Assembly: GCA_016190445.1 (NCBI GenBank)
Contig: JACPQL010000051.1
Span: 38,505 to 102,504 of the forward strand
DNA length: 64,000 nucleotides
Origin: Chloroflexota bacterium
Lineage (GTDB): Bacteria; Chloroflexota; Dehalococcoidia; Lucifugimonadales; JACPQL01
Direction of reading: 5' to 3'
Part shown: in pieces, positions 8,901 through 53,397 of the stretch
How the letters are laid out: each line of letters starts with the position of its first letter
Position numbering within the stretch: position 1 is the stretch's first letter
Notes under the pieces: generated by a model
What the model was told of the DNA's origin: nothing
What the model saw: only the letters and a program-made list of their open reading frames with translations
Databases searched by the model: none
Made by a program: the position numbers and the translations under genes

Positions 8901-11900
8901 TGCCCGGGGAGACCGTCAGGCCCGAAAGGGTCAGCACGCCCACCGGAGTTGGCCCCGGGCCTGGGCCAGGGCCCGGCCCCGGCCCAGCCGCAGCCTGGAT
9001 ATCGAAGGCCAGGGAAGCCGTGACACTGCGGTTGGCCGCCTCGTCAACGGCGCGGACGGCGAAGGTGTGAGAGCCCACCGCTAGCGCCGTGGACACCGTG
9101 GTGCTGGTCACATCCCCAACGTTCACAAAGGCGCCGCCATCTACGCTGGTCTCATAGCTCACCACGTCGGTGGAGGCGGAGGCGTCCCAGGCGAAGCTGG
9201 GGGTAGTCACCGTGGCCGCCGACGTGCGGCGCAAGTTCGTGGGTGGCGCCGGCGGAGTGGCGTTCACGGTGAACGCCTTGGCCGCCGAGGCGCTGCGGTT
9301 GCCCGCCCTGTCCACCGCTCGCACAGCGAAGCTGTGGGCCGCATCCGACAGGGCCGTGGTCAGCGTGGTGCTCAGCACCAGTCCAATATCCTGGAAGGCT
9401 GCACCATCCACGCTGGTTTCATAGCTGACCACGTCGCTGGAAGTGGAGGCGTCCCAGGCAAAGCTGGGAGTGGCGTCGGTCGTCAACGACGTGTCCACCA
9501 CCAGGCTAGTGAGCCGCAAGTTAGTCGCCGGAGCGGGCGCCACCAGGTCCACAGTGAAAGCAAGAGAGGCATTCGGGCCCGTGGTGCTCTGGGTGTTGGT
9601 GGCACGAACCTGCACTGTGTGCGGCCCATCCGCCAGGGGGTCCCCCGCTGTCACACCAATGCGCGCCTGGAGCACGTTCCCTATGTTCTGGAACGCACCA
9701 CCATCTATGGCTATTTCGTAGAAGGCTATGGTCCCCGTCAGGCCGGTGGGCGGCTGCCAGACCACTAGCGGCGTGCTGGTGTTCACGAAAACGGCAGGCG
9801 GCTCCAGTCGAAGACCCTGCGGCGCGCCCGCCGGCGACGCTGCCAGTTGGAACACGAGCTCCGCCGGCACACTCCTGTTCCCGGCCTTGTCCACCGCCTC
9901 GACCTCCAGCTTGTATGTCCCATCGGCCAGAGGAGGTGTGGGCCCAAAGTTGAGCCCGGTCGTCTCGTCCGACAGCAGCTTGGTTTCACCGCTCCATATC
10001 TCCACGTGGTAGAAGGCGACCCCTATGTTGTCCACCGCCGCGTCCCACGCGAACGCAGGGGTGGAGGTGGTAGCTGGAGTAATCATCCGCAGGTTCGCGG
10101 GCGGCTGCGGTGGTGTCGTGTCCACAGTGAAGGTGAGGGAAGCCGCCGCGCCAATGGCCGCCAGGTTGTTGACTGCCAGCACCTGCACAGTGTGCAGTCC
10201 GTCCGCCAAGGGGCTCCCCACCGTCACCCCGATCCGCGCCTGGAGCACGTTCCCTATGTTCTGGAATGCCCCACCATCAATGGAGAACCCGTAGAAGGCA
10301 ACAGTCCCGGTAATCACTAGAGGTGGCTGCCAGACCACCAGCGGCGTGCTGGTGGTCACATAGACCGCAGGCGGCTCCAACCTCAGCCCCTGAGGCGCCT
10401 CCGGAGAGGCCACCGTGATGGTGAACACCAACTCGGCGATGGCACTCCGGTTCCCGGCCTTGTCCACCGCCACCACCTGCAACTTGTATGTCCCATCGGC
10501 CAACTGAGCCGTCGGCCCAAAGGTAAGCCCCGCGGTCTGTCCCGACAGGACCACCGTGGCACCGCTCAGCACCTCCACCAGGTAATGCGAGACCCCAATG
10601 TTGTCCACCGCTGCGTCCCACGCGAACGCCGGAGTGGAGATGGTGGCTGGGGTGGTCATCCGCAGGTTCGTGGGTGGGCCCGGCGGCGTTACGTCCACCG
10701 TGAAGATGAGGGAGGCAACCGGACCCGTGGTCCCCAGGTTGTTGGTCGCCCGGACCTGCACCGTGTGCTGCCCATCCGCCAAGGGACTCCCCACTGTCAC
10801 ACCGATGCGCGCCTGGAGCACGTTTCCTATGTTCTGGAACGCCCCACCGTCAATGGATATCTCGTAGAAGGCTATGGTACCGGCGAGGCCCGTGGGCGGC
10901 TGCCAGACTACCAGCGGCGTGCTTGCGGCCACAAACACGGCGGGCGGCTCCAACCGCAGCCCCAAGGGCATGTCGTCTGGCCCCAGGGCCAGCTCAAACG
11001 CCTGCTCCGCGGGCGTGCTCTGGTTCCCCGCCAGGTCTACCGTGACCACCCGCAGGGTGTGCATCCCGTCGGTAAGGGCCGAGGTAGGCCCAAAGGTGAG
11101 CCCTGCCGTCTGGCCTGACACCACCACCTGGCCCAGCGTGAGGACCTCCACCAGGTAGTAAGAGACACCCACGTTATCCGTGGCGGCGTCCCAGGCGAAG
11201 GCAGGTGTGGAAGTCGTGGCCGGGGTGGTCATCCGAAGATTCGTCGGCGGATTAGGCAGCGTGAGGTCTATGTTGAAGCCCAGGCTGATGGTGGTGCTGG
11301 TGTTGCCCACGTTGTCCTGCGCCAGCACATTGAAAGTATGGGGCCCTGCTGCCAGGTCAGCGGCGGGCGCGATGCCCGTGGCGACCACAAACTGGGGCGC
11401 CGCCGCGTCAACCCACCACTGATAGCCCGCGATGCCACTCCCCGGCGCCGGGTCGCTGGCAGCAGGCCATGAGAAGCTCGGACGCGGGTCGTTGGTCGGC
11501 GAGGAGGGGACCATAGTAACAGGCCCGGCAAGAACAGGCGCCACGGTGTCAATAGTGAAGGCAACGGCGGCGGCAGGTCCCGTGGTGCCCAACTTGTCAT
11601 AGGCACGCACGGAGAAGGTATGCGGGCCATCGGCAACCGCGGCAGCGGGCTGGAAGACGGTCGCGGTCCCTATGGACGTGAAAACGCCGCCACCGGCCAG
11701 GTCTATGGCCACCTCGTAGCCGCCGATGCCCCCGGGCGTGGAGGATGGCGCGGTCCATGTGAAGATAGGCCGGGCCTCTCTGCTCACCGCCGCTGGCGAC
11801 ACCGCCAAGTCCCGCGGCTCCGACGGCGCGGCGAATGCCTCTACCGACAGGTCCAGCCGGGTGGAGCCGCCTGGCGTAAAGGTGGCGGTCCCCCCCAGCA

Positions 11901-12285
11901 GGCCCTCCACATACAGATTGACCCGCTCGCCCTCCCGGCCTCCCTCGCGCACCGCAGCCGTGTCCAGGTCATCGCCCGGAACGCGGAAAGCATCCGCCAC
12001 CCCGTAGGTGCCGCCCTCAGCAGTAATGCCACTGGCGAAGGTGCCCACCTCCACAAAGGAGCCGTCAGGCTGCTGTGCAGCCACCCTGGCAGTGATAGTC
12101 AGACCGGGAGGGGCCAGAGCGCCTCCCCTGAAAACGCTCTCACCTCCCACACCCCCGGTGATGGTGACGTGGCCGAAGAAGGCGTTGTCCGCAACAGGCA
12201 CCGCCCCCAGAGGCGAAACGAGGAGAAACACGGCGGTACCGAGGAGGGCCACCAGAGTAGTGCCAAGGACTATTACTCTACGCAC
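5911..12285 (-). CDS. Giant (2124 aa) secreted surface protein: Ig/FN3-like tandem repeats, PT- and GP-rich linkers, CARDB-like repeats, C-terminal TM anchor
   Basis: GTG start followed by a signal peptide ([28 protein letters not shown]). Near-identical ~190-aa repeats are present ([23 protein letters not shown]..., [11 protein letters not shown]...[24 protein letters not shown]). The C-terminal third has CARDB-like units. The C-terminus reads [32 protein letters not shown]. Confidence 0.85.
   Translation of the reverse strand: [2124 protein letters not shown]
8480..8990 (-). repeat. Low-complexity coding repeats inside the giant gene: Pro/Thr-rich linker (about 8480-8675) and a (Gly-Pro) run (about 8951-8985)
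   Basis: The protein reads [62 protein letters not shown] and [17 protein letters not shown]. The + strand shows ggcccngg-type periodicity and GVGVGV shadow ORFs. Confidence 0.85.
9050..11270 (-). repeat. Tandem coding repeats, period about 573-582 bp (three two-domain units), then two shorter ~270-bp single-domain units
   Basis: Shadow ORFs on the + strand recur at 11180, 10598, 10025, 9443 and 9170 with near-identical peptides (ASHANAGVE.VAGV.IRRF.GG). The sense-strand protein repeats are visibly more than 80 percent identical. Boundaries are approximate. Confidence 0.75.
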
Positions 12286-12542: not shown

Positions 12543-15500
12543 CTACGGCGTGATCACGCCCGCCAGTGTGAAGAGCCAGAAGCCCTCCCCAGGATTGGAG
12601 TTATCCGTCTCGGTCAGCCGACGGAACACGCCAAGATATATCTGCAACTCCGCACCCTCCTCAAAGGGGAACACGATCTCGTTATCATAGGTGAGCAGGG
12701 AGGACCACTTCACCGTGGGCACTGTGAGGCCGCGGAGGAACTGGCTTACCAGCACCGTCTTCTCCGAGTGCAGGCCCACCAGGTTCCAACCGTCCACCAC
12801 ATTGAAGGTGGGCGGGACAGCGCCAGGAGCCAGGAACTGACCGCCAATGGTCGCCTTTATGGGAGCCGGCGTGCCCGTTGCCCCTGGCAGCAGGGCCTCT
12901 GACTGCTTGAACACCCGTACTGGCCTGGCGCCGGGCGTCCCGTCTATGACCGCCTGGGTCCCTGTCGCCCCGGCGTTGTTGATCCAGATCACATCTCCGG
13001 TGGCGGGATTCTTCAAGAACTCTCGCGCCCTTACCCAGAACCCGTTGCCCACGTTCCACTTGTTGGGCGGCGCAGCGGTGAACTCCACGTCGTCAAATGG
13101 GTCCACGGTGGAGTCCAGCGGGCTGGCGGTGAAGTAACCTTTGAACGCGCCGACCCCGGAAACACCACCACTCCACCAGGTCACAGACTCCACTACGTGC
13201 TTCAGCTTCACCGTGCTGATACCGGTGACCGCCTGGAAGTCTGGATTGACGTTAGGCACCACCTGCTCCAGCACCTCCGCCACCGTATCGTAGCTCGCGT
13301 CGGGCTGAAGAGGCATAGAGACCAGGTTAAAGCCAGGCATCAGGTAGATGTTGAACGCTTGCAACGTAGCGACGATAACCGCCTGCACCTGCCCCACAGC
13401 CACGTTGCCGGAGGCATCCGTAGCCTTGATGTTGAGCGAGAAGGTGCCGGGCGGCGTCCCTGAAGGCACCAGGATAGGCAACACGTAGTTGGCCAACAGG
13501 CTAATTTGCCACTGGTCTCTCACGGCTCCAGGTATGTTGGCCACCGGCTCCAGGGCCTGCGTGGTGCCGCTACCGGGCAACACGAACTCCACCGTCTTCA
13601 CCCCGCTGAAGTCATCCGCTGCCGTGACCTGGAAGACCACCGGGTCCTTCTGCCGCGCCGAGATGTTACCCACCGGGTAGATCACCGGCAGTACGGTCAG
13701 GGTTGGTGCAGTCACGTCCAGCACCAGGATCAGATCCGCGCAGCCAAACAGGCCGCCCTTGTCCTCCATTACCGCCATCACCAGGTTGTACCCTGAGCCC
13801 AGGGAAACGATCTGCGAGAACGTGGTGGTGGCATCGAAGACCTTCTTGCTGAACACGGGCTTCTCAAGCAGCCCCAGACTACTGATCAACGTGTTCAGCG
13901 AGGTCGCCTCGGCGGCAGTGATCTTCCCGTCAGCGCAGGTAGACCGCCGCAGCGCCTGCACCTGTGCCACCGCGCTGCTGGACGAGGAGGTGACAATGCT
14001 CATGTCCAACTGCTTCGGGTTGTCCTCCACATAGCTACCGCTCACCGTCTCCGCGGGTGTCTTAGTGGGATACACCACCAGCGCGCCCAGCATGGTGGAC
14101 GACAGGGCCACCGACAGAGTCACCTGGGGCGGCTTGCTGTCCAGGTACACCGTGTTTGTCTTGGTCGCAAGGAGGATGGGATCATAGGCTTTCCTGGTAG
14201 CGCTGGCGGTGACCGCGTTTTCGCCCTCCGCCAGAGGGAACTTGGCGGTGAACAGGAGCTGGCCCGGGTCCGCGGGGTCCACGTTCACGGTGATGTCACT
14301 CGCCGCCACGAAACCCGCGCCCAGCACCTTCACGTCGTCTACCAGCCAGCCTCGCCCATCGTTGCCCCAGGGGTCCCAGCTATCGAACAGGAACCGTATG
14401 AAGCCAGTCTTCCCCACCTGGCTGCTCAGGTCCAGGGTCACAGCCACCAGGTCTGGGGCTGGCATGGGGCCCGCGACCCAGAAGTTGGGGATAAAGACCA
14501 CAGCCCACGACTTGCCAGGAAGCGAGTCTGGAGGGTAGACCTTCCCCGGCTGCGGGAACTCGCCCGGCGCAGGCGGGACCGGCGGGAAGTCAATGATCTG
14601 GGCCAGGGTGGTGCATGCGCCACCCGTCTCGCAGAACTGTATGAGCTTGCGGTCAAACTGGTCGCCGCCTTCGGTATCGTACCAGGTCTTGAACTCCAGG
14701 CTAGTGCCCTGGATGGTCATGGTCGCGGTGTCCAGCGCCCCCGCGTTGGCAAAGCCTGGCGTGTTGAAGCTGTTCTGGGGCTCGATGCCGTAGTACCAGA
14801 GAGGGTTGCCGGGCGCGTCATCGCCCGGGGCCACGACAGTGGTCGCGTGCCACAGGGAAGGCTCCGACGCCGGACGGTACGAGAATGGCGCCCCTGGCCC
14901 CCCGCCAATGACGCTGCTCTTCCCGTACTGGGCCACATCCGGGGCGCTTATGGAGCCCGGCGTGCCCAGGGTAGATGCCCCGGTCTTGGCAGGATTACCG
15001 AACAGTACAGTCTCAGGAAGCAGTACCCCGACCACTACGTCCGTGGTGGCCACCGAGGGGTCGTTGACGGTGCCAGTGACCGGGATCTTGCCGCCCACCA
15101 GCTCAGGGGAGTCCGGCGTGAAGGCAGCGCCGTCCGCGGGAGAGGTGATGGTCACCGCGAACTCCTCCGGGGTGACCTTCCTCACTTCAAAGCTCTTGGC
15201 CTGGCTCACGGGGGCCTCACCAGTCACGTTGGCGATGAGGGTGGCAGTCCAGAGGCCAACGGAGGTCTTCTCCACCACCGCTCCGGGCTTGAACCCCTTG
15301 TACACCGCGGGGGGAAACTCGTAGATATCCGCGTAGTAGAGGACGTTGCCGTCCACCCCCAGGCCTTCTACTCCAGAAGGAGGAGCAGGGGCCATGAAGC
15401 CCTGGAGGAAGTTGACCGGCGGCGTGACGTCCGTGGGGTCAATGACCTGGAACGTTTGCCCCTTCATGATGAACAGGTTGCTACCCACTGTAGCCGCATC

Positions 15501-17357
15501 TGCACCCACGGCCTGGATGTCCGGGTTCGGGTCGCCAGGAGGCCCGTTCACCTTCACCGATTGGATGACGTTGCCCGTGGCGGGGTTGATAACGTGGTAC
15601 TCGGTAAAGGAGTAACCGCCACCGAAGTCATAGCCCGCGGACTCCTCCACCGCCAGTATGTTGCCGCCATACGTGGCCAGGGCGCCGATGGCGTCCACGT
15701 CCGTGCCGCTCACTGCCAGGATAACGGGCGTGGTGGTAAGCGTTCCTCCAGACAGGATGGCGAACTTCCACAAGCTGGGTGGGTAGGTCGAGTTGTCCGC
15801 CAGGTACAGGTTGCTCCCCACCACCGTCGCCCCTTTAATCTGGTCGGAGGAGGTGCCTGCGGCGGTGATCACCTCCACCGTCTGGAGGAGCCCAGTGCCC
15901 GTGCCCACCACCGCGTTGGGGTCCACCACCTGGGCCGGGTCAATCACCTCCACGAAATCGGCAGGCGCACCGTCCACCGCCACATAGAGTGGGCTGGAGG
16001 CGCCTGCCAGGGCGTGAGGTGTGGGGGTGGGCGGTGAGGCCGCGGCAGGAAGCACGCTGTAGTACAGCTTATCGGTGTCGCCGTCCGCGAAGATGAGCCT
16101 GCCGAGCGTGGCATTGTACGCCACACCTTCCAGGTCCGTCAGACTCACCGTCGCCGTAGATAGCGTGGAGCCGTCCCCGGGGTTCTGGAACACCACCCGG
16201 TTGCCCCCCACGCCGACTACGGCACCTATGTAATAAGGCTCGAAGGCCATACTGCTGTAGCCATCGGCACCGCCGAAAACGGCCAGCGGCGCGCTCCAGA
16301 CCGTCGGCGCAAAGGGGTCCCAGAGAAGCGGGTCCTCAAGGTAGACCGGCGCGCTCCCAGGCGGCGTCCGGAGGCCACCCAGCACCAACTGGCCCGCCCA
16401 CGGATCAAAGGCCATGCCGCCAGTGGGCGAGGCCACCGGCGAGTCAACCGGGTACGCCTGGCCGTCCAGGAACCCCATGGGGAACCCGGTTGCCGGGTCC
16501 AGCGCCTCCACCTTCATAAGCCCGCCATCCAGGTACGAGACGAAGAGGACGGGCGTCACTCCACCCACCAGCCCAAAGGTGATCGCCTGGGCCTGGTCGT
16601 TGGGGGCATCGGCCCAGCCTATCAGCGAGCCGTCAAACTCGTTCAGCGCCAGGATCTTGTCGGGCTGCCCCACATCCCCCTGCACCAGCAGGAACAACTC
16701 CCCTGCCGCGTCGTAGGAGGTCAGGTCAATGGGCTCCGTCGTCGCACCTGCCGCCAGGGGTATTTCCGCGAAGAGCTTGACCTTGGGGAGCACGTCGCTG
16801 GGCACTGGCGTCGCAAGGCGGAAGGCCAGCGGCTTGTTCGGCTCGTTGGGGAAAGGCAACTCCACCGGCACAGGGTACTTCTTGATAGGGGGCTTGAACT
16901 TCAGCGTGTACTTGATCTTGCCCGTGATGCCAGGGGGAACGTAGCCGTACCCGTATCCTCCTGGTGGCACCACAATGTCCTCATAGGTTACGGTCACGCT
17001 CAGCGTCCCCAGGGGGTTGCCGCTCCCGTCCTTGGGAAGCGAGCCGGTCATGTCCGTGGTCCCAGGGACCATCGGCAGAGCGAGGTTGCTCAAGAAAGCG
17101 GCAAAGGGACTGGGGCCCGCAACGGTCAGCTTAACGGAGGTAAGAGCCAGAAACTCGGCAGGGTCCACAGTGACCGTGCCATTGAGAGTCACAACCTCGT
17201 TCAACTTGTACTGAGGAGGCGCTCCTGCCTTGGTGGTACCCAGCGTGACCCCGGAACCCAGGGCCGGCCCCGCAGCTAGCAGCAAAGCGAGGATAATACC
17301 TAAAGTGACCGCTACCGGACCGAGGACCCGACTCCGCCGCCAGATACTTTTCCTCAT
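12543..17357 (-). CDS. Large secreted multidomain surface protein (beta-propeller-like repeats, MAM/InhA-like beta-sandwich, Ig-like domains)
   Basis: ORF 12543..17432. I prefer ATG 17357 (MRKSIWRRSRVLGPVAVTLGIILALLLAAGPALG), which has an AAGGAAGG RBS 6 nt upstream. Motifs recur (LYYSV, LYVAVDG, SNLYLADNS, NVLYYADIY). The block LEFKTWYDTEGGDQFD...GFIRFLFDSWDPWGNDGRGWLVDDVKV resembles MAM or immune-inhibitor-A type domains. No C-terminal TM anchor. Confidence 0.7.
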   Translation of the reverse strand: MRKSIWRRSRVLGPVAVTLGIILALLLAAGPALGSGVTLGTTKAGAPPQYKLNEVVTLNGTVTVDPAEFLALTSVKLTVAGPSPFAAFLSNLALPMVPGTTDMTGSLPKDGSGNPLGTLSVTVTYEDIVVPPGGYGYGYVPPGITGKIKYTLKFKPPIKKYPVPVELPFPNEPNKPLAFRLATPVPSDVLPKVKLFAEIPLAAGATTEPIDLTSYDAAGELFLLVQGDVGQPDKILALNEFDGSLIGWADAPNDQAQAITFGLVGGVTPVLFVSYLDGGLMKVEALDPATGFPMGFLDGQAYPVDSPVASPTGGMAFDPWAGQLVLGGLRTPPGSAPVYLEDPLLWDPFAPTVWSAPLAVFGGADGYSSMAFEPYYIGAVVGVGGNRVVFQNPGDGSTLSTATVSLTDLEGVAYNATLGRLIFADGDTDKLYYSVLPAAASPPTPTPHALAGASSPLYVAVDGAPADFVEVIDPAQVVDPNAVVGTGTGLLQTVEVITAAGTSSDQIKGATVVGSNLYLADNSTYPPSLWKFAILSGGTLTTTPVILAVSGTDVDAIGALATYGGNILAVEESAGYDFGGGYSFTEYHVINPATGNVIQSVKVNGPPGDPNPDIQAVGADAATVGSNLFIMKGQTFQVIDPTDVTPPVNFLQGFMAPAPPSGVEGLGVDGNVLYYADIYEFPPAVYKGFKPGAVVEKTSVGLWTATLIANVTGEAPVSQAKSFEVRKVTPEEFAVTITSPADGAAFTPDSPELVGGKIPVTGTVNDPSVATTDVVVGVLLPETVLFGNPAKTGASTLGTPGSISAPDVAQYGKSSVIGGGPGAPFSYRPASEPSLWHATTVVAPGDDAPGNPLWYYGIEPQNSFNTPGFANAGALDTATMTIQGTSLEFKTWYDTEGGDQFDRKLIQFCETGGACTTLAQIIDFPPVPPAPGEFPQPGKVYPPDSLPGKSWAVVFIPNFWVAGPMPAPDLVAVTLDLSSQVGKTGFIRFLFDSWDPWGNDGRGWLVDDVKVLGAGFVAASDITVNVDPADPGQLLFTAKFPLAEGENAVTASATRKAYDPILLATKTNTVYLDSKPPQVTLSVALSSTMLGALVVYPTKTPAETVSGSYVEDNPKQLDMSIVTSSSSSAVAQVQALRRSTCADGKITAAEATSLNTLISSLGLLEKPVFSKKVFDATTTFSQIVSLGSGYNLVMAVMEDKGGLFGCADLILVLDVTAPTLTVLPVIYPVGNISARQKDPVVFQVTAADDFSGVKTVEFVLPGSGTTQALEPVANIPGAVRDQWQISLLANYVLPILVPSGTPPGTFSLNIKATDASGNVAVGQVQAVIVATLQAFNIYLMPGFNLVSMPLQPDASYDTVAEVLEQVVPNVNPDFQAVTGISTVKLKHVVESVTWWSGGVSGVGAFKGYFTASPLDSTVDPFDDVEFTAAPPNKWNVGNGFWVRAREFLKNPATGDVIWINNAGATGTQAVIDGTPGARPVRVFKQSEALLPGATGTPAPIKATIGGQFLAPGAVPPTFNVVDGWNLVGLHSEKTVLVSQFLRGLTVPTVKWSSLLTYDNEIVFPFEEGAELQIYLGVFRRLTETDNSNPGEGFWLFTLAGVITP

Positions 17358-17681
17358 TAGAGCCTTCCTTAGCTTGCTCCAGGAACTGCACCCCAGGACC
17401 ACCCCCCCACCCACAATAGTGATACCCATCACCTATGCATTCGGCTTGGCAGCTTACGCTCCCAAACCCCCACTGTCAAGCGCCCCTGGGCACAAGAAGG
17501 CGTTCCATTCCCCGTGCGTCGCCAGATTCCCAGGGCGATCAGCCACTGCCACCGCCAGCAGCTACTCCAAAACTCCCTCGGGGTCCCAGGCCAGGGCCTC
17601 TCCCCAACGTAGCATCGTCCTGCCCTGCGAGCACTACGCCCAACGGCGCCAGTGCTCCCGGGCGTGGGCCTCTTGGCACTG

Positions 17682-24237: not shown

Positions 24238-24266
24238 TTGACAAACTCCCGCTTTCTGTATATAAA
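24238..24266 (+). promoter_or_regulatory. Sigma70-like promoter upstream of the HTH-MenA-like gene
   Basis: TTGACA (24238..24243), 17 nt, TATAAA (24261..24266), about 58 nt before the ATG at 24324. Confidence 0.55.
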
Positions 24267-24323
24267 TGAGCCAGCCTGATCACTCCTGTAACAGGTCGTT
24301 GGCCTTACATTACGTCCATTACA

Positions 24324-25481
24324 ATGGAACAGACGCACCTGGCAACTGACCGGAGCCTGAGCGTGCAGCAGGTGGCAGCTCGCCTCGGCGTGACGCCGGT
24401 GACGGTCTATCGCCACCTCAGGCGTGGCACCCTTCCCCACTTCCGCTTTGGGGGAACGTTGCGTGTGCTGGAGACTGACCTGGACGCCTTTATACAGCGG
24501 GGACGACGCCACGGCGTATCCCCGATTCCACCGGAGAGGGCAAACGTACCAACGGCAAACACCCTGCCACAGCGCAGCCGGGCCTGGGCGGAGCTTGTGC
24601 GCCCCTCTTCCTGGACAGCCTCCCTGGTGCCTGTGCTGCTGGGCACAGCCATCGCCTGGAAGGACGGCCACCTCAACCCCATCCTTGTGGGGCTGGCGCT
24701 GGTGGGCGCCACCCTGTTGCACGCCGCCACCAACGTGATCAACGAACTGTTCGACGTCCGCCAAGGCGTGGACGCGGTCGAGTCTGCCGGCGGCAGCAAA
24801 ATGGTAGCCCAGGCCAGACTCCTCCCCGGCGAGGTGTACAAAGGGGGGCTGCTGCTGTTCGGCATGGCGGTGCTGGTGGGCGCCTACCTGGCCACGGTGC
24901 GCGGCTATTACATCGTGCTCGTCGGCACGGCTGCGGTGCTGGCTGGCTACTTCTACACTGCACCGCCGTTCCACTACAAGTACCGCGCCCTCGGCGTGCC
25001 CGTGGTGCTCGTTATGATGGGCCCCCTCATGGTGCTGGGCACCTATTTCGTGATGACAGGCACGGTCACCGCCCAGGCAGTGCTGGCCTCCATCCCGGTG
25101 GGGGTCCTGGTGGCCTCAATCTTCCATGCCAAGGACATCCGAGACGTGGAGAACGATGCCCGGGCCGGGTCCACCACCCTGGCCACGCTCATGGGGCAGA
25201 GGTCCGCTGGCAGGCTGTACACCGTCATGACCTTTGGCTGCTACGCCATCACGGTGCTCCTCGTCGCGCTGAGAACCTTGCCCGCCTGGTCTCTCATCAC
25301 GTTGCTGGCGTTGCTGGTGGCCATGCCAGCCTCACTGCACATGGAGCGCGGCACGCGGCCCCAGGGCGGTCCCACCCTCGCGCTGGCTGCCATTGACACC
25401 GCCACTGTCCGGCACCACCTGCTGTTCGGGGTGCTCCTCAGCATAGCCTTCGTTCTCCAGAGGGCCACAAGCTCATGGTGA
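24324..25481 (+). CDS. Fusion protein: excisionase/MerR-type HTH DNA-binding domain plus UbiA-superfamily (MenA-like) prenyltransferase
   Basis: The N-terminal ~60 aa (LSVQQVAARLGVTPVTVYRHLRRGTLPHFRFGGTLRVLETDLDAFIQRG) match the HTH_17/excisionase pattern. The rest is polytopic with Asp-rich motifs NVINELFDVRQGVD and DIRDVENDARAG. One uninterrupted ORF of 385 aa. Confidence 0.75.
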   Translation: MEQTHLATDRSLSVQQVAARLGVTPVTVYRHLRRGTLPHFRFGGTLRVLETDLDAFIQRGRRHGVSPIPPERANVPTANTLPQRSRAWAELVRPSSWTASLVPVLLGTAIAWKDGHLNPILVGLALVGATLLHAATNVINELFDVRQGVDAVESAGGSKMVAQARLLPGEVYKGGLLLFGMAVLVGAYLATVRGYYIVLVGTAAVLAGYFYTAPPFHYKYRALGVPVVLVMMGPLMVLGTYFVMTGTVTAQAVLASIPVGVLVASIFHAKDIRDVENDARAGSTTLATLMGQRSAGRLYTVMTFGCYAITVLLVALRTLPAWSLITLLALLVAMPASLHMERGTRPQGGPTLALAAIDTATVRHHLLFGVLLSIAFVLQRATSSW

Positions 25482-26188
25482 CCAGCCAGGAAACCCAGGC
25501 CAAGGCGCAATACGTAGGCTCCATGTTCGCCCGCATCGCCCGCCGCTACGACTTCGTGAACTCGGTCATGACCGCCGGTCGGCACGGGGCGTGGCGCCGG
25601 ATGGCGCTGGCCATGGCGGACCCGCCAGAGGGCGCCTTGGGGCTGGACGTGGCCTGCGGCACCGGCGATTTTGCCCTGGCACTCGCCCGCCGCCCGGTGC
25701 TCGGCGTGGTTGCCGCGGACTTCTGCCAAGAAATGCTGTCGGTGGCCAGAGAGAAGGCAAGCCGTCGTGGGGCTCAGGACCAGGTCCACTTCCAGATGGC
25801 CGATGCCCTGTCGCTCCCCTTTCCCGATGACCAGTTCCACTGTGTGACCATCGGTTTTGCGCTGCGCAACGTCGCCTCCATTGACCGCTGCCTCGCCGAG
25901 CTGTTCAGGGTGACTCGCCCCGGAGGGCGCACCGTCAGCCTGGAGCTGACCTCTCTGGGACGGGGGCCCCTGGCGCCTCTGGTGCACATCTACCTCAAAA
26001 AGGCCATCCCTATGTTGGGTGGCCTTCTCACCGGGCAGCGAGAGGCATACCGGTACCTGCCCAACTCGGTGATGGGCTTCCCCAGCCCGGAGAGACTGGC
26101 GGAGATGATGCGAAAGGCGGGCTTCTCCAGGGTGTGGTCCCGGCAGCTTGCCCTGGGCGCTGTCGCCATTCACGTGGGAGAGAAATAG
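25475..26188 (+). CDS. ubiE: Demethylmenaquinone/ubiquinone C-methyltransferase (UbiE/MenG)
   Basis: YDFVNSVMTAGRHGAWRR and LDVACGTGDFA (SAM-binding) are present. 237 aa. The start overlaps the upstream stop (ATGGTGA). Confidence 0.9.
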   Translation: MVTSQETQAKAQYVGSMFARIARRYDFVNSVMTAGRHGAWRRMALAMADPPEGALGLDVACGTGDFALALARRPVLGVVAADFCQEMLSVAREKASRRGAQDQVHFQMADALSLPFPDDQFHCVTIGFALRNVASIDRCLAELFRVTRPGGRTVSLELTSLGRGPLAPLVHIYLKKAIPMLGGLLTGQREAYRYLPNSVMGFPSPERLAEMMRKAGFSRVWSRQLALGAVAIHVGEK

Positions 26189-26240: not shown

Positions 26241-27815
26241 ATGCCTACTCCCAGATCAGATGCATACGATGTGGTGGTCATAGGCGCGGGCCTGGCGGGC
26301 ATGACCGCCGGCGCCCTGCTGGCCCAGAACGGGATGCGGGTGCTGGTGGCGGACCACCGGCCCTCGCCCGGTGGCGTGTGTCACAGCTTCCAGCGTGATG
26401 GCTTTACCTTCGACGTGGGCCCCCACCTCCTCAGCGGCTGTGGCGACGGCTGGGTGGTGGACAAGGTCCTGCGCCGCATAGGTGGCCGGGAGAAGGTGGA
26501 GTTCCTCTCCGTGGACCCTCTGGCCCGGGTCACCTTCCCCGAACTCTCCTTCGACCTGCCCGCCAGGGGAGAGGAGTTCCTGGAGACCATCTCCCAGCGC
26601 TTCCCCTCAGAGAGCCGCCAGCTCGGGATGCTCTATCGTGAGATGCTGGCCATGTACCAGGAGGTGGACCAACTCCCGCACAGCTTTGGCATCTGGCAGT
26701 ACCTGAAGGTGCCCGTCAACCAGCCCATCTTCATGAAATACCCCTCCAAGACCTACCAGGCGAGCATGGACGACTTCCTCCTGGACCCACGCTTGAAGGC
26801 CGCCATCGCCTCGCTGTGGGTCTACTTCGGACTCCCGCCCTCCCGGATATCGGCGGTCTTCTGGACCATTGTCATGATGACCTACTTCCTGGGAGGCGGC
26901 TTCTACCCCAAGGGCGGGCTGGCGCAGCTTGCGCGGGCCTTCGCTGCGGGGCTGGAGAACAGCGGCGGGGAGCTGCTCCTCAACTCCCGCGCCGAGCGGA
27001 TCATGGTATCCAGAGGGCGAGTGGAGGGCGTCCAGTTCCGGGACGTCTCCGGCCAGTGGCTGCCTGGAGGAATGGCGGCGGGCCCGGACGCGCCTGCGGG
27101 CGAGACCTTCGTGGTGAAGGCTGACCACGTGGTGTCCGCCGGAGATGCCGTCAGCACCTTCCTGGACATGGTAGGAGAAGAACACCTGCCTGGCGGGTTC
27201 GTCAAAGGGCTCAGGAGATCGGAGCCGTCCCTTTCCCTGGTGAAGGTAGCCCTGGGAGTGGAGATGGACATGGTAGCCGCCGGGTTCGGGCGACACGACA
27301 CCGTCGTCTACGATAGCTACGACATGGACGCCGTCTTCGCCCGCATGAGGTCAGGGCTTCCCGATGCCCCGTGTGATGTAACCATCCCCTCGGTGACCGA
27401 CCCCTCCCTGGCACCCAAGGGGGCCCACACCGTCTACCTGTGGAACTACGCCCCCTACTCCGCGACCCAGGACTGGCAGGCCACTGGAGAGAAGGTTGCC
27501 GAGCAGTTCATCGGATGGATGGACGCCAGGGCTCCGGGCTTCGCGCGGGCGGTGCGACAGCGCCTCATCAACACGCCACAGACTTTCAGGGAATATGCCC
27601 TGACAGTGGACGGAGCGCCGTACGGATGGGCCTTCACCCCCAAGCAGATGGGCTTCAACAGGCTCCAGCCCAGGACGCCCATCAAGGGCCTGTATCTGGC
27701 AGGGCACTGGACCACGCCCGGCGCGGGAGTGGCCGGCGTGGTCATGTCGGGAGAGCGCACGGCGGACATAGTAGCGGCAAAGGAGGGATTCGCCCTATGG
27801 CGGAAGAGCGCGTAG
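26241..27815 (+). CDS. Phytoene-desaturase (CrtI)-family FAD-dependent oxidoreductase
   Basis: ATG 26241 has an AGGAGG 5 nt upstream. The N-terminus reads YDVVVIGAGLAGMTAGALLAQNGMRVLVADHRPSPGG. The C-terminal GLYLAGHWTTPGAGVAGV is typical of the CrtI/amine-oxidase fold. 524 aa. Confidence 0.8.
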   Translation: MPTPRSDAYDVVVIGAGLAGMTAGALLAQNGMRVLVADHRPSPGGVCHSFQRDGFTFDVGPHLLSGCGDGWVVDKVLRRIGGREKVEFLSVDPLARVTFPELSFDLPARGEEFLETISQRFPSESRQLGMLYREMLAMYQEVDQLPHSFGIWQYLKVPVNQPIFMKYPSKTYQASMDDFLLDPRLKAAIASLWVYFGLPPSRISAVFWTIVMMTYFLGGGFYPKGGLAQLARAFAAGLENSGGELLLNSRAERIMVSRGRVEGVQFRDVSGQWLPGGMAAGPDAPAGETFVVKADHVVSAGDAVSTFLDMVGEEHLPGGFVKGLRRSEPSLSLVKVALGVEMDMVAAGFGRHDTVVYDSYDMDAVFARMRSGLPDAPCDVTIPSVTDPSLAPKGAHTVYLWNYAPYSATQDWQATGEKVAEQFIGWMDARAPGFARAVRQRLINTPQTFREYALTVDGAPYGWAFTPKQMGFNRLQPRTPIKGLYLAGHWTTPGAGVAGVVMSGERTADIVAAKEGFALWRKSA

Positions 27816-28747
27816 CAACTGAACAACGGGCCAGCCGGCCCTCGCTGCGGTCCCGGTGGTACAGGGAGATACGGGCCCCGTTCCTCACAGCCTCCATCGT
27901 GCCTGTGCTCCTGGGCACTACCCTGGCCTGGGCCCGGGGGGGTGGGTGGAGCTGGGGCCTGTTCCTCCTGGCCATGATGGGAGCGGTCCTCCTGCACATC
28001 GGGACCAACGTCCTCAACGACTACTTCGACTACCGGGCAGGCACTGACAACGTCAACTTCGAGTTCCTGCGCCCCTACAGCGGGGGCAGCCGCATGATCC
28101 AGCTCCAGATGATGTCTCCCAGGGAGGTGCTGCTGGAGGCCATCCTGGCCTTCGCAGGTGCCACCATCGTTGGGGTGGCCCTCCTGTTCCTGGTGGGGCT
28201 ACCCATCCTGTACTTCGGCCTGGTGGGTATGCTCTCGGGCATCCTCTACACCGTGTGGCTGGTGAAGATAGGCATCGGCGAGGTGTTCGTGGGGCTCAAC
28301 TTCGGCGTCCTCATGACCGTTGGCGCCTATTACGTCCAGACCCGCACCATCTCCACAGAGGTGGCGGTGGCCTCCATCCCCATCGCGCTCCTCATAGCCC
28401 TGGTGCTGTTTATCAACCAGTTCCAGGACTACCAGGCAGATAAGGCAACAGGCAAGCGCCACCTGGTGGTCCGCATGGGCAGGGCACGCTCCGCCTGGGT
28501 GTACGTGGCGGGACTCGCGGCGACCTACGTGTCGCTGGTGGTGGGTGTGGCCGCCTTCGGCGTCACGCCCTTCGCCCTCCTGGCTCTGGTGACGGTGCCC
28601 ATAGCATGGAAGGCAGTGAGGACCGCCCGGCGCTTCTACGACGACTATCTTCGCCTCGCCCCGGCCAACCAGGCCACCATAATGGTCCACATGTTCGTGG
28701 GCCTGCTCATGACCGTGGGCTACCTCATACAGCGGGCCGTGGGGTAG
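27797..28747 (+). CDS. UbiA-superfamily prenyltransferase, MenA-like (second copy)
   Basis: ATG 27797 overlaps the upstream gene by 19 nt. Motifs NVLNDYFDYRAGTD and FQDYQADKATGKRHL are present. 316 aa, polytopic. Confidence 0.8.
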   Translation: MAEERVATEQRASRPSLRSRWYREIRAPFLTASIVPVLLGTTLAWARGGGWSWGLFLLAMMGAVLLHIGTNVLNDYFDYRAGTDNVNFEFLRPYSGGSRMIQLQMMSPREVLLEAILAFAGATIVGVALLFLVGLPILYFGLVGMLSGILYTVWLVKIGIGEVFVGLNFGVLMTVGAYYVQTRTISTEVAVASIPIALLIALVLFINQFQDYQADKATGKRHLVVRMGRARSAWVYVAGLAATYVSLVVGVAAFGVTPFALLALVTVPIAWKAVRTARRFYDDYLRLAPANQATIMVHMFVGLLMTVGYLIQRAVG

Positions 28748-39680: not shown

Positions 39681-39882
39681 ACCCCATTCTGGGTTCAGCC
39701 AACCATACAGGCTCTCCGCCTTTGGCCTGGCAAACCGAACGTGCAGTCTACAATTGGTGCGCTTTCCCCGCCCACGCAGGCGCATGTTATAGGGTTCTCG
39801 CAACCACAGGCTGCGAGACGCCCACCGAGGGGATGAGGCCCAGCGGCCGGAAGGGGCCATGGATGGGAGGAGGAGAAAACCG

Positions 39883-41673: not shown

Positions 41674-41753
41674 CAACTGCCGCTGGTCCCCCAGTTGAAG
41701 GACCAGCACACGGAAGCTGCCTCGGTCAAGCTGGAACAGGAGGTAACCGGACA
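41674..41753 (+). repeat. Conserved short inter-SBP spacer (type 1 of 3 copies)
   Basis: It shares gaaggaccagcacacg...ggaacaggaggtaac(c/t)ggacaATGaaagcgag with 43545..43622 and 47446..47523. It contains the RBS and shows no terminator hairpin. Confidence 0.8.
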
Positions 41754-43544: not shown

Positions 43545-43622
43545 CAACCGCCTGACCCTTTCGCCGAAGGACCAGCACACGCACGCTGCCTCGGGCAAGC
43601 TGGAACAGGAGGTAACTGGACA
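43545..43622 (+). repeat. Conserved short inter-SBP spacer (copy 2)
   Basis: Nearly identical to 47446..47523, and related to 41674..41753. Confidence 0.8.
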
Positions 43623-45413: not shown

Positions 45414-45434
45414 GACAGCCATGGCCACCATCCC

Positions 45435-45468
45435 AGGTCCCGCCCCGGGGGACATCGGGGCGGGACCT
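45435..45468 (+). terminator. Hairpin terminator candidate after SBP copy 3
   Basis: A 13-bp stem aggtcccgccccg (45435..45447) pairs with cggggcgggacct (45456..45468) across an 8-nt loop. The downstream T-tract is weak. Confidence 0.55.
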
Positions 45469-45482
45469 GTTATCCCTACCAG

Positions 45483-45512
45483 TTGACAATGATGACATAG
45501 GTCAGCTAGACT
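45483..45512 (+). promoter_or_regulatory. Sigma70-like promoter for SBP copy 4
   Basis: TTGACA (45483..45488), 18 nt, TAGACT (45507..45512). The leader is about 135 nt. Confidence 0.55.
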
Positions 45513-45651
45513 CGTCGCACCACGCGCCAGAGTGGGCCTTTGAGTCCGCATGTGTGCGCTTGCGGGACGAATTTCGTAGCGCCTGTATCCCTCCCGGCAC
45601 CTAGCCCAGGGGAGGGAGTGACCGGGGTTGTCCCCCAGGAGGAGGTAGGCA

Positions 45652-47445: not shown

Positions 47446-47523
47446 CAACTGCCTGGCCCTTTCGCCGAAGGACCAGCACACGCAAGCCGCCTCAGCCAAG
47501 CAGGAACAGGAGGTAACTGGACA
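47446..47523 (+). repeat. Conserved short inter-SBP spacer (copy 3)
   Basis: See 43545..43622. The homology continues into the 5' end of copy 5, matching that of copy 3 (ATGaaagcgagcg.cagggtccacctaagagtcctttt). Confidence 0.8.
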
Positions 47524-49314: not shown

Positions 49315-49334
49315 CATGACCCCACCACCCCTCG

Positions 49335-49366
49335 AGGCCCACCCTGGCGGGTGGGCCTCCTTTTTT
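49335..49366 (+). terminator. Rho-independent terminator after SBP copy 5
   Basis: aggcccaccc-tggc-gggtgggcct is followed by cc-tttttt-g. Confidence 0.8.
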
Positions 49367-49473
49367 GCTTTCCCGCAATTGTTGCGCCGCTTCCGTCGGT
49401 TGTTGCCACCACCATCCCAGCCCCCAATGTCAGGACGGCCCGTCATCTGTGCAGAACCTCATGAACCCGCAAT

Positions 49474-49502
49474 TTGACAGGACACAGGGGGCCAAATATC
49501 CT
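49474..49502 (+). promoter_or_regulatory. Sigma70-like promoter for SBP copy 6
   Basis: TTGACA (49474..49479), 17 nt, TATCCT (49497..49502). The surrounding block gaacccgcaatttgacaggaca.agggggccaaatatcct is duplicated at 51491..51532. Confidence 0.6.
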
Positions 49503-49551
49503 GGGCGCGTCTAGTTACGAATACACACTACTCCACGGAGGAGGTTGAGGC

Positions 49552-51342: not shown

Positions 51343-51362
51343 AATGGTCGTGGCCACCGTTC

Positions 51363-51396
51363 AAGGCCCACCCTGGCGGGTGGGCCTTCTTTTTTG
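51363..51396 (+). terminator. Rho-independent terminator after SBP copy 6
   Basis: aaggcccaccc-tggc-gggtgggcctt is followed by c-tttttt-g. It is homologous to the terminator at 49335. Confidence 0.8.
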
Positions 51397-51503
51397 CTTT
51401 CCTGTGGTTTTCGCTCTGCCTCCTTGGGGTTGTTGCCACCGCGGCCGGAGTCCCCGGTGCAAGAGCTACCCGCCATTTGTGCAGCACATCCCGAACCCGC
51501 AAT

Positions 51504-51532
51504 TTGACAGGACAGAGGGGGCCAAATATCCT
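51504..51532 (+). promoter_or_regulatory. Sigma70-like promoter for SBP copy 7
   Basis: TTGACA (51504..51509), 17 nt, TATCCT (51527..51532). Confidence 0.6.
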
Positions 51533-51587
51533 CTCCCGCGGCTGGTTACGAAGAACCACGGCTTCAGTAGAAGGAGGACTAGGCACA

Positions 51588-53375: not shown

Positions 53376-53397
53376 ACCAGCAGCCGCCGCGCAGGAG

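What the first reader, a model, noticed from the sequence alone, without database searches (positions are those of the whole stretch)
24324..25481. Excisionase-type HTH DNA-binding domain fused to a polytopic MenA-like prenyltransferase
Residues ~10-60 (LSVQQVAARLGVTPVTVYRHLRRGTLPHFRFGGTLRVLETDLDAFIQRG) fit the HTH_17/excisionase-MerR pattern. They continue in the same ORF, without any stop, into a full UbiA-superfamily membrane enzyme with Asp-rich motifs NVINELFDVRQGVD and DIRDVENDARAG. A good promoter (TTGACA-17-TATAAA) precedes the ATG of the HTH. A cytoplasmic DNA-binding domain tethered to a quinone-biosynthesis membrane enzyme is not an architecture I know to be described. It could couple quinone or prenyl status to transcription, or anchor DNA at the membrane. 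Alternatively, the enzyme could be translated from an internal start.
Basis: partly seen in the sequence, partly recalled or inferred. Interest (0 to 1): 0.6.

Follow-up and report, generated by a model that had tools for sequence, protein, structure and literature searches.

The report
DNA-binding domain fused to menaquinone prenyltransferase
A membrane enzyme that makes the respiratory quinone carries a conserved DNA-binding domain at its inner end, and a conserved DNA motif at the start of its own gene suggests, without proving, that the enzyme controls its own production from the membrane.

Summary
ORF 24324-25481 (+) encodes 385 aa: an HTH_17 winged helix (residues 12-60, E=1.4e-13), a variable basic linker of about 25 residues, and a 9-TM MenA/UBIAD1-like UbiA prenyltransferase with both Asp-rich motifs.

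It is not an artefact:
- The identical protein was assembled in four independent sequencing runs.
- Five further variants of the fusion (45-60% identical) occur in uncultured Chloroflexota/Dehalococcoidia.
- The HTH evolves under purifying selection (dN/dS about 0.25), while the linker is nearly neutral.
- No usable internal start codon precedes the invariant W88/E90.

New evidence: immediately after the -10 box of the fusion gene's own promoter lies a conserved element, CATGATTGATCACGATTG in relatives and GCCTGATCACTCCTGTAACAG at window 24273-24294. It has TG steps phased 10 bp apart. It is absent upstream of four HTH-less orthologues. The HTH models onto BldC and Xis, which bind direct repeats, and keeps BldC's base-contacting Arg30.

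Best reading (about 50%): a membrane-tethered, self-regulating enzyme of the menA-menG operon. That would be a new variant of two known kinds, transmembrane transcription regulators and trigger enzymes. DNA binding, the direction of regulation and any sensed signal are untested.

The parts
24238..24266 (+). Promoter: -35 TTGACA (24238-24243), 17-nt spacer containing TG (24257-24258), -10 TATAAA (24261-24266)
   Evidence: Read. The same -35 / TG-extended -10 geometry aligns in L001, L005 and L041. Not scored by the tool because the hexamer ends in A.
24273..24294 (+). Candidate operator AGCCTGATCACTCCTGTAACAG, overlapping the expected transcription start, with TG steps phased 10 bp apart (TGATCAC core at 24277-24283)
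   Evidence: Conserved block against L001 19/25 (null maximum 18 in 200 shuffles). L001 against L005 21/25 (null 14.7+-1.0), including an exact 18-mer. Its distance to the -10 box is fixed, while its distance to the ATG varies from 24 to 51 nt. Absent upstream of four HTH-less orthologues. The core pattern occurs once in the window and, in the fusion loci, only at this position. No Rfam match and no consensus RNA fold.
24324..25481 (+). Complete ORF of the HTH_17-UbiA fusion protein (385 aa plus stop)
   Evidence: 100% identical to P0001, 'UbiA family prenyltransferase [Chloroflexi bacterium]'. Assembled identically in four independent runs.
24351..24509 (+). Winged-helix HTH_17 domain, residues 10-62 (b1 11-13, a1 14-21, a2 recognition helix 25-34, wing b2-b3 40-49, a3 50-62)
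   Evidence: Pfam and NCBIfam. AF2 models. Foldseek: Pukovnik Xis 4j2n rmsd 1.1 A over 47 residues; BldC 6amk/6ama rmsd 1.3-1.4 A over 50 residues. Profile hit to BldC E=6e-4, with R30 aligned to BldC Arg30. dN/dS 0.22-0.26.
24510..24581 (+). Variable, basic, Pro-rich linker, residues 63-86
   Evidence: 10-24% identity among orthologues and dN/dS about 0.8-1.1. Length varies. Lower pLDDT, 67-72. Residues 61-93 contain 6 K/R.
24582..25478 (+). MenA/UBIAD1-like UbiA-superfamily prenyltransferase, nine TM helices, residues 87-385. Asp-rich motif 1 at 24732-24773, motif 2 at 25134-25157.
   Evidence: PF01040. The best NCBIfam models are MenA equivalogs, but all below cut-off. AF2 pLDDT 89, Foldseek UBIAD1 8djk_B target-normalised TM-score 0.80. 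K+R 6 on the N-terminal side against 1 on the other side.
25475..26188 (+). Co-transcribed UbiE/MenG-type quinone C-methyltransferase (start overlaps the fusion's stop, ATGGTGA)
   Evidence: PF01209 E=3e-57. TIGR01934 226 bits, above its 158 cut-off. A UbiE methyltransferase gene is also in the operon of fused (L001, L041) and HTH-less (L043, L044) orthologues.
26241..27815 (+). CrtI-family FAD oxidoreductase, same operon (function in this context unknown)
   Evidence: TIGR02734 203.6 bits, below its 238 cut-off; Amino_oxidase PF01593. Start ATG 26241 with AGGAGG.
27797..28747 (+). Second, HTH-less MenA-like UbiA paralogue (316 aa), overlapping the end of the CrtI-like gene
   Evidence: PF01040 E=9.5e-32. 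31% identical to the fusion's enzyme part. Start ATG 27797 preceded by AAGGAGG.

Best explanation
The gene encodes one bifunctional inner-membrane protein. Its C-terminal 300 residues form a MenA/UBIAD1-type aromatic prenyltransferase. Together with the UbiE/MenG methyltransferase translated from the overlapping next gene, it most likely performs the last two steps of menaquinone synthesis. The locus sits among cytochrome c maturation and cytochrome oxidase genes.

Its N-terminal 60 residues form a BldC/Xis-type winged helix, held in the cytoplasm on a flexible basic tether of about 25 residues. I propose that this domain binds a direct-repeat operator with TG steps every 10 bp, so that all sites lie on one face of the helix. 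The operator starts a few bases after the -10 box of the gene's own promoter. The enzyme would thereby autoregulate the menA-menG operon while staying in the membrane. Repression is the most likely direction, given that the site overlaps the transcription start.

Shown: the fusion, its conservation, the selection on the HTH, its topology and fold, retention of BldC-type DNA-contact residues, and the conserved promoter-proximal element.

Inferred: that the HTH is what binds that element, the sign of regulation, and the identity of the quinone substrate.
For: Real, single polypeptide:
- HTH_17 and UbiA lie in one ORF.
- The identical protein appears in four independent assemblies.
- There are six fusion variants at 45-60% identity: P0001-P0004, P0122 and P0271.
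- HTH dN/dS is 0.22-0.26 with 63-76% amino-acid identity, against a linker dN/dS of about 1.
- No start codon lies between codons 48 and 92. HTH-less relatives begin about 8 residues before the invariant W88.

Cytoplasmic HTH:
- Two TM helices separate it from Asp-rich motif 1.
- K+R count is 6 against 1.

DNA-binding competence:
- The best solved matches are BldC (profile E=6e-4; rmsd 1.3 A) and Pukovnik Xis (rmsd 1.1 A).
- The invariant T27, R30 and R47 and the R/K at position 33 align with BldC's DNA-contact residues Thr27, Arg30, Lys33 and Arg48.
- In BldC, Arg30 reads a 5'-YpG-3' step within direct repeats (PMC5859096).

Operator:
- There is a conserved block at fixed distance from the -10 box in the window, L001, L005 and L041.
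- L001 and L005 share an exact 18-mer although their synonymous sites are saturated. Pairwise block tests exceed all 200 shuffles.
- GATTG repeats have a 10-bp period.
- The element is absent from four HTH-less orthologous promoters.
- There is no RNA structure or Rfam family.

Enzyme and pathway:
- UBIAD1 is the best structural match.
- A UbiE methyltransferase is in the operon in fused and unfused orthologues.
- The neighbourhood is respiratory: CcmF/CcmH, COX1-3.
Against: - There is no experimental evidence of DNA binding.
- The operator inference rests on four informative loci, which form two fairly close pairs.
- The fifth locus (L003) shows only a non-significant resemblance, and its HTH lacks b1/a1.
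- The window's own copy of the element is the most diverged. It has CCTG where the relatives have ATTG, so it lacks the AT-rich tetrad important for BldC.
- BldC Lys26 is not conserved (V/A here).
- Another regulator that binds direct repeats, such as an OmpR-type response regulator, could own the site.
- All NCBIfam MenA equivalog scores are below cut-off, and a second MenA-like paralogue sits in the same operon. The substrate is therefore not certain.
- Only short contigs were available, so a wider regulon could not be assessed.
Confidence: 0.5

Rival explanations
1. The fusion is real, but the HTH is not a sequence-specific regulator of this promoter. It could serve as a protein-protein module (as the HTH of RodZ binds MreB; from memory). 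It could also tether the enzyme non-specifically to the nucleoid, as RacA anchors DNA. The conserved promoter element would then be bound by a different, unlinked transcription factor.
For: RacA, a chromosome-anchoring wHTH, is among the structural and profile matches. BldC Lys26 is not conserved. The window's element lacks the AT-rich tetrad. Direct repeats with a 10-11 bp period are also typical of response-regulator sites (established knowledge). L003 keeps a truncated HTH under constraint without a clear operator.
Against: The element co-occurs with the HTH and is missing from four HTH-less orthologous promoters. No candidate regulator gene is conserved near the fusion loci. The residues corresponding to BldC's DNA contacts (T27, R30, R/K33, R47) are invariant or conservatively kept.
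Confidence: 0.25
2. The two parts act as separate proteins. Either the prenyltransferase is translated from an internal start, or the linker is cleaved, for example by the Rce1-like CPBP protease encoded just downstream in most orthologous loci. Cleavage would release a soluble HTH regulator by regulated proteolysis.
For: The linker is long, variable and unconstrained. A CPBP-family gene overlaps the 3' end of the fusion gene in L001, L003, L041 and L042. L003 and L005 do contain in-frame ATG/GTG/TTG codons in the linker.
Against: The window gene and L001 have no in-frame start between the HTH and the invariant W88. The CPBP gene equally accompanies HTH-less orthologues and is absent from the window's operon, so it is not tied to the HTH. 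If the parts needed to be separate, selection would not have kept them in one frame across six diverged variants.
Confidence: 0.1
3. Artefact: a frameshift, misassembly or remnant of a mobile element has joined a stray excisionase gene to menA.
For: HTH_17 domains are common in prophages and integrative elements. GC3 of the HTH part (0.74) is somewhat lower than that of the enzyme part (0.87).
Against: The ORF is identical in four independent assemblies plus the MAG. There are six diverged orthologous fusions. The HTH is under purifying selection. The neighbourhood has no integrase or att context. The promoter and leader are conserved.
Confidence: 0.02

Closest known systems
BldC (Streptomyces; MerR-like wHTH; PDB 6AMA/6AMK) and phage/ICE excisionases (Pukovnik Xis 4J2N, RdfS)
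   Same: Same minimal winged-helix fold, b-a-a-b-b-a (rmsd 1.1-1.4 A, 31-34% identity). BldC is the best solved sequence match (E=6e-4). The equivalent of BldC's guanine-reading Arg30 and of several phosphate and wing contacts is kept. The candidate target is a set of phased direct repeats rather than a palindrome, as for BldC and Xis (PMC5859096).
   Different: BldC and Xis are free proteins of about 60-70 aa. Here the domain is the N-terminus of a 9-TM enzyme. There is no recombinase or att context, so it is not a recombination directionality factor. Lys26 is not conserved. The repeat period appears to be 10 bp, against about 9 bp for BldC, and the AT-rich tetrad is weak in the window's own site.
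Transmembrane transcription regulators (ToxR, TcpP, CadC, TfoS, ChiS; census in PMC10269533)
   Same: A cytoplasmic DNA-binding domain and membrane-spanning segments in one polypeptide, presumed to bind DNA without leaving the membrane. The census reports 27% of such regulators with more than two TM regions and 151 that use HTH_17.
   Different: The characterised examples are sensors, mostly with one TM helix and a periplasmic input domain. Here the membrane part is a complete biosynthetic enzyme whose active site faces the cytoplasm, and no sensory domain is present. 'UbiA' does not appear in the census supplements that are held (one file is truncated).
Trigger enzymes / bifunctional enzyme-regulators (BirA, NadR, PutA, archaeal RbkR)
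   Same: An enzyme carrying its own DNA-binding domain that is proposed to control genes of its own pathway. Autoregulation through an operator in its own promoter resembles BirA and PutA (established knowledge; RbkR: PMC5397151, listed).
   Different: Those are soluble or peripheral proteins whose ligand or redox state gates DNA binding. This one is an integral polytopic membrane enzyme, and no ligand gating has been shown.
MenA / UBIAD1 (1,4-dihydroxy-2-naphthoate polyprenyltransferase)
   Same: UbiA-superfamily fold with nine TM helices and two Asp-rich motifs. UBIAD1 is the best structural match (target-normalised TM-score 0.80, 27% identity). MenA models are the best NCBIfam hits. The gene is coupled to a MenG/UbiE methyltransferase gene.
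   Different: Scores fall below every MenA equivalog cut-off (for example 194.5 against 277, and 102.1 against 102.15). The clade also contains about 660-aa LLM-oxidoreductase fusions. A second MenA-like paralogue is in the operon. Canonical MenA has no DNA-binding domain.

Membership tests
HTH_17 / excisionase-type winged helix (Pfam PF12728, TIGR01764) | Profile match above the curated threshold | tested here: met
   PF12728 51.3 bits (cut-off 27), E=1.4e-13. TIGR01764 39.6 bits (cut-off 28.8).
HTH_17 / excisionase-type winged helix (Pfam PF12728, TIGR01764) | b-a-a-b-b-a winged-helix fold | tested here: met
   AF2 secondary structure E11-13, H14-21, H25-34, E40-42, E45-49, H50-62, the same in two models. 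Foldseek gives Xis and BldC at rmsd 1.1-1.4 A.
Excisionase / recombination directionality factor (functional class) | Association with an integrase and att sites of a mobile element | tested here: not met
   The neighbours are cytochrome c maturation, thioredoxin-like, UbiE, CrtI-like and UbiA genes. No recombinase is present in the window flanks or the orthologous loci.
BldC family | Conserved recognition-helix Arg that reads a YpG step, and basic wing residues | tested here: met
   In the profile alignment to 6ama/6amk, the invariant R30 aligns to BldC Arg30, T27 to Thr27, R/K33 to Lys33 and R47 to Arg48. Lys26 is not conserved.
BldC family | Binds head-to-tail to DNA direct repeats | tested here: inconclusive
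   The candidate operator has GATTG / nnnTG units at a 10-bp period. Binding itself cannot be tested here.
BldC family | Small stand-alone protein (about 68 aa) without other domains | tested here: not met
   The domain is fused to a 300-aa membrane enzyme.
UbiA superfamily of intramembrane prenyltransferases (PF01040) | Profile match above threshold and two Asp-rich motifs (NxxxDxxxD and DxxxD) | tested here: met
   104.4 bits (cut-off 34.2). N137, D144, D150, D274 and D278 are invariant across 20 homologues.
UbiA superfamily of intramembrane prenyltransferases (PF01040) | Nine-TM fold with the active site on the cytoplasmic face | tested here: met
   AF2 pLDDT 89.3 with nine long helices. 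Foldseek finds UBIAD1, DGGGP synthase, AfUbiA and ApUbiA. The positive-inside count is 6 against 1. The side assignment is inferred.
MenA (1,4-dihydroxy-2-naphthoate polyprenyltransferase) equivalog | Score above an NCBIfam/TIGRFAM equivalog cut-off | tested here: not met
   NF004749 194.5 against 277. NF004751 179.6 against 264. TIGR00751 102.1 against 102.15.
MenA (1,4-dihydroxy-2-naphthoate polyprenyltransferase) equivalog | Pathway context: adjacent demethylmenaquinone methyltransferase | tested here: met
   The overlapping downstream gene scores 226 bits on TIGR01934 (cut-off 158). The same pairing is seen in L001, L041, L043 and L044.
MenA (1,4-dihydroxy-2-naphthoate polyprenyltransferase) equivalog | Prenylation of DHNA | not testable with these tools
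   Needs an enzyme assay or complementation of a menA mutant.
Transmembrane transcription regulators | DNA-binding domain and TM segments in one polypeptide, with the domain in the cytoplasm | tested here: met
   There is no internal start.
Transmembrane transcription regulators | Regulates transcription by binding a promoter while membrane-anchored | not testable with these tools
   Only a conserved candidate operator at the gene's own promoter is available.
Trigger enzymes | Enzyme state (substrate, product or redox) gates the regulatory activity | not tested
   No computation available here addresses this. The unconstrained linker argues against rigid allosteric coupling but does not exclude it.

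The most novel reading that the evidence does not exclude
An integral-membrane trigger enzyme. Occupancy or turnover of the prenyltransferase active site (DHNA or polyprenyl diphosphate supply, or the redox state of the quinone product in the bilayer) would control whether the tethered BldC-like domains can assemble head-to-tail on the phased repeats at the menA-menG promoter. This would give a direct, one-protein feedback loop from the respiratory quinone pool in the membrane to transcription. Because the HTH is made first and the gene is drawn to the membrane during co-translational insertion, it could act mainly in cis.
Probability: 0.15. Interest if true: 0.8.

Novelty: new variant of a known kind. 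Interest (0 to 1): 0.6.

Why it matters
How bacteria set the size of their respiratory quinone pool is poorly understood, and no dedicated transcription factor is known for menA-menG. A prenyltransferase that carries its own DNA-binding domain, with a matching conserved site on its own promoter, would be a compact and testable case of a polytopic biosynthetic enzyme regulating transcription from the membrane.

It would extend the idea of transmembrane transcription regulators from sensors to enzymes, and the trigger-enzyme idea from soluble to integral membrane proteins. It also provides a natural system for asking how a membrane-bound factor finds DNA: the sites are phased on one helical face, and the protein may act in cis during co-translational membrane insertion.

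Practically, it flags six database entries annotated only as 'UbiA family prenyltransferase' or 'DHNA octaprenyltransferase', or left unnamed, as two-domain proteins.

Tried and rejected
- Genome (GTDB representative) and metagenome scans with the N-terminal alignment returned only loci already known (L010 = L001, L015 = L003) plus unrelated stand-alone HTH_17 genes. L016 was checked and is a 69-aa stand-alone HTH. No extra promoters were gained this way. P0122 and P0271 came from the profile searches instead.
- The L003 'operator' is suggestive by eye (AATTG/ATATG/TATTG at a 10-bp period), but pairwise block tests are within the null. It is treated as uncertain.
- A PWM and pattern scan for further sites in the window, L001, L003 and L041 found none convincing. 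The runner-up hits are the reverse complement of the conserved TNVINE coding sequence, which is also present in HTH-less genes, so they were rejected as coding constraint.
- The RNA-element reading of the conserved leader was rejected. There is no Rfam hit at E<=1 and no consensus structure, and the spacing is fixed to the -10 box rather than to the start codon.
- FNR/CRP-type (TTGAT-N4-ATCAA) and Rex-type palindromes were considered from memory. The element is not an inverted repeat beyond the 6-bp TGATCA (one search found no inverted repeats).
- A Foldseek search of AFDB50 for other two-domain examples could not be run because the library is not installed.
- A neighbour-joining tree of the enzyme parts did not resolve whether the fused forms make one clade. 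The two fused groups interleave with HTH-less ones on short branches, so a single gain with later losses is inferred only from the shared HTH and operator.
Full report
OBSERVATION. Window 24324..25481 (+) is a single 385-codon ORF. Pfam finds HTH_17 at residues 12-60 (E=1.4e-13, 51 bits against a cut-off of 27) and UbiA at residues 101-336 (E=7.8e-30). NCBIfam adds the 'excisionase family DNA-binding' domain model above threshold. It ranks MenA equivalogs as the best enzyme models, all below their cut-offs. TTGACA-17-TATAAA is at 24238-24266. The scanner skipped it only because the -10 hexamer ends in A. An in-frame TGA at 24267 makes ATG 24324 the first possible start.

IS THE FUSION REAL?
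- The identical 385-aa protein is recorded from a Chloroflexi MAG and was assembled independently from four sequencing runs.
- Five further variants carry the same HTH_17+UbiA architecture. They are P0002 (60% identity, a Dehalococcoidia MAG), P0003 (53-54%), P0004 (48-49%), P0122 (45-46%) and P0271, whose contig begins inside the HTH.
- Codon-level comparison shows the HTH is at least as constrained as the enzyme. Its dN/dS is 0.22-0.26 at 63-76% amino-acid identity, against 0.20-0.35 at 49-61% for the enzyme. The linker of about 25 residues is close to neutral, with dN/dS 0.8-1.1 and 10-24% identity.
- The nearest HTH-less relatives (about 303 aa) begin about 8 residues before the invariant W88.
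- In the window gene no ATG/GTG/TTG lies in frame between codons 48 and 92, and GTG92 would remove the invariant W88/E90. A separately translated enzyme is therefore unlikely.
- None of four HTH-less orthologous loci has a separate HTH_17 gene next door.
- Sequencing artefact and a 'split gene' ancestry are rejected.

ANATOMY. An AlphaFold2 model built on 20 homologues (pLDDT 89.3) gives three parts. First comes a winged helix: b1 11-13, a1 14-21, a2 25-34, wing 40-49, a3 50-62. Then a lower-confidence linker. Then an amphipathic helix (81-92) and nine TM helices.

The enzyme part superposes best on human UBIAD1, with target-normalised TM-score 0.80 and 27% identity. Two TM helices separate the N-terminal region from Asp-rich motif 1, so the HTH and the active site lie on the same side. 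Loop K+R counts (6 against 1, plus 6 in residues 61-93) mark that side as cytoplasmic.

The isolated HTH model matches mycobacteriophage Pukovnik Xis (rmsd 1.1 A over 47 residues) and BldC (rmsd 1.3-1.4 A over 50 residues). A profile of the six HTHs hits BldC best among all solved structures (E=6e-4). In that alignment the invariant R30 falls on BldC Arg30, the residue that makes bidentate contacts to a guanine in a 5'-YpG-3' step. T27, R/K33 and R47 fall on BldC's phosphate and wing contacts Thr27, Lys33 and Arg48. Lys26 is not conserved (PMC5859096).

A CANDIDATE OPERATOR. When the upstream regions of the fusion genes are aligned, the -35 box and the TG-extended -10 box coincide. A conserved block follows directly after them:
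- L001 GCATGATTGATCACGATTGTAACAG
- L005 ACATGATTGATCACGATTGCGAAAG
- L041 TCATGATTGATCACGAGTGCAAAG
- window CCAGCCTGATCACTCCTGTAACAG (24270-24294; listed as a part from 24273)

L001 and L005 share an exact 18-mer, although their proteins are only about 50% identical and their synonymous sites are saturated. The best 25-mer matches are 21/25 for L001-L005 and 19/25 for window-L001. The null mean is about 14.6 and the null maximum is 18 in 200 dinucleotide shuffles. L005 and L041 are 67% identical over the upstream 75 nt, against 48% at four-fold degenerate sites.

The block has three notable properties:
- It keeps a fixed distance from the -10 box, while its distance to the ATG varies from 24 to 51 nt.
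- It has no consensus RNA fold and no Rfam match.
- It is built from GATTG-like units, of which only the TG is invariant, spaced 10 bp apart. There are three units in L005 and L041.

The block is absent upstream of four HTH-less orthologues. Its core pattern occurs once in the 64-kb window and, within the fusion loci, only at this position. The fifth fusion locus, L003, has only a non-significant resemblance, and its HTH has also lost b1/a1.

Phased direct repeats are what BldC- and Xis-type domains bind head-to-tail (PMC5859096). A 10-bp period puts all sites on one face of the helix, which is the geometry a membrane-anchored binder would need. That last point is inference.

FUNCTIONAL CONTEXT.
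- The next gene overlaps the fusion's stop codon and is a UbiE/MenG C-methyltransferase (TIGR01934, 226 bits).
- It is followed by a CrtI-family oxidoreductase and a second, HTH-less MenA-like paralogue that is 31% identical to the fusion's enzyme part.
- Upstream lie CcmH, CcmF and a thioredoxin-like protein. Downstream lie cytochrome oxidase subunits I-III.
- In the other fused and unfused orthologues the operon reads UbiA, Rce1-like CPBP, cupin, UbiE, ABC transporter, or simply UbiA then UbiE.
- This points to the last two steps of (mena)quinone synthesis, although membership of the MenA equivalog is not met by score.

BEST EXPLANATION AND RIVALS. I put about 0.95 on a genuine bifunctional polypeptide. 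I put about 0.5 on the specific mechanism: the tethered BldC-like domain binds the phased repeats at +1 of its own promoter and autoregulates the menA-menG operon from the membrane, probably by repression.

The main rival (0.25) is that the HTH has a non-regulatory role and the element belongs to another factor. Processing or an internal start gets 0.1. It is weakened by the lack of start codons and by the CPBP gene being equally present beside HTH-less orthologues and absent here. Artefact gets 0.02.

COMPARISON WITH WHAT IS KNOWN. Membrane-anchored transcription factors are an established class. A census found them widespread, with 27% having more than two TM regions and 151 using HTH_17 (PMC10269533). 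Soluble enzyme-regulator fusions, the trigger enzymes, are also established.

I found no paper that mentions an HTH_17-UbiA combination, and 'UbiA' is not in the held census supplements. Among 1.84 billion cluster representatives, only one protein matched the profile through the HTH, the linker and TM1. The nearest HTH relatives are tandem HTH_17 arrays, HTH_17-PAS-GAF regulators, an HTH_17-ParA-type ATPase fusion and stand-alone proteins.

The finding is therefore a rare, lineage-restricted new variant of known kinds. What is new is that the membrane moiety is a complete biosynthetic enzyme, and that a plausible cognate operator can be named.

VERDICT. Interest is 0.6.

Noticed in passing
proteins P0017-P0120 and P0274-P0333: The next-nearest relatives of this UbiA clade (about 40% identity) are very numerous proteins of about 660 aa. 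They fuse an N-terminal luciferase-like monooxygenase (PF00296) to the same MenA-like enzyme, and come from Chloroflexota, Actinomycetota, Dormibacterota and others. N-terminal cytoplasmic add-ons thus recur in this clade. Their function is unknown to me.
   Followed up: no
L001 6469-7104; L003 9104-9742; L041 4252-4908; L042 1101-1751; L038 4916-5575; L040 4955-5587; L043 3926-4561: An Rce1-like CPBP intramembrane protease gene directly follows the prenyltransferase gene in both HTH-fused and HTH-less orthologues, often with an overlapping start. A cupin, a UbiE methyltransferase and an ABC transporter usually come next. The window's operon lacks the CPBP and cupin genes. A prenyltransferase paired with a CAAX-protease-like protein is curious.
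   Followed up: partly
window 26241-27815 and 27797-28747: A CrtI-family FAD oxidoreductase overlaps a second MenA-like UbiA paralogue (31% identical to the fusion's enzyme part). Both have strong AGGAGG ribosome-binding sites, unlike the fusion gene. The pair resembles carotenoid desaturase/elongase gene pairs (from memory). It may make a different prenylated product.
   Followed up: partly
window 24724-24745 (-); also L001 5718, L003 8362, L038 4164, L040 4164: The reverse complement of the coding sequence for the conserved TNVINE active-site motif (TCGTTGATCACGTTGGT) resembles the candidate operator (TGATTGATCACGATTGT). It is the runner-up PWM hit in several loci. It also occurs in HTH-less genes, so it is most likely coding constraint and coincidence.
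   Followed up: partly
L003 7956-8040 (protein P0003): In this orthologue the HTH lacks strand b1 and most of helix a1: it reads '..RSLRMETLGVSEVTVYRHL', with only TTG or ATG starts available. Its promoter carries only a degenerate version of the repeat element. This may be a lineage in which the DNA-binding function is decaying.
   Followed up: partly
P0121, P0123-P0129, P0213: The closest sequence relatives of the HTH are proteins made of 4-10 tandem HTH_17 copies, for example 8 copies in the 479 aa of P0121. Others are HTH_17-PAS-GAF-HTH_17 regulators. Covalently linked arrays of a domain that binds direct repeats head-to-tail are notable in their own right.
   Followed up: no
window 39859-55482 and 57777-59522: A tandem run of at least seven paralogous family-5 solute-binding protein genes (SBP_bac_5, about 596 aa each) lies next to two ABC permease genes (55671-57500).
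   Followed up: no
window 5911-12285 (-) and 12543-17432 (-): Two very large ORFs (2124 and 1629 aa, GC3 0.81) on the minus strand were not examined.
   Followed up: no
window 24300-24326; L001 5300-5326; L005 250-271; L041 3080-3100: None of the fusion genes has a recognisable Shine-Dalgarno sequence before its start codon, whereas downstream genes in the window have AGGAGG. This may mean weak or specialised translation initiation for the regulator-enzyme.
   Followed up: no
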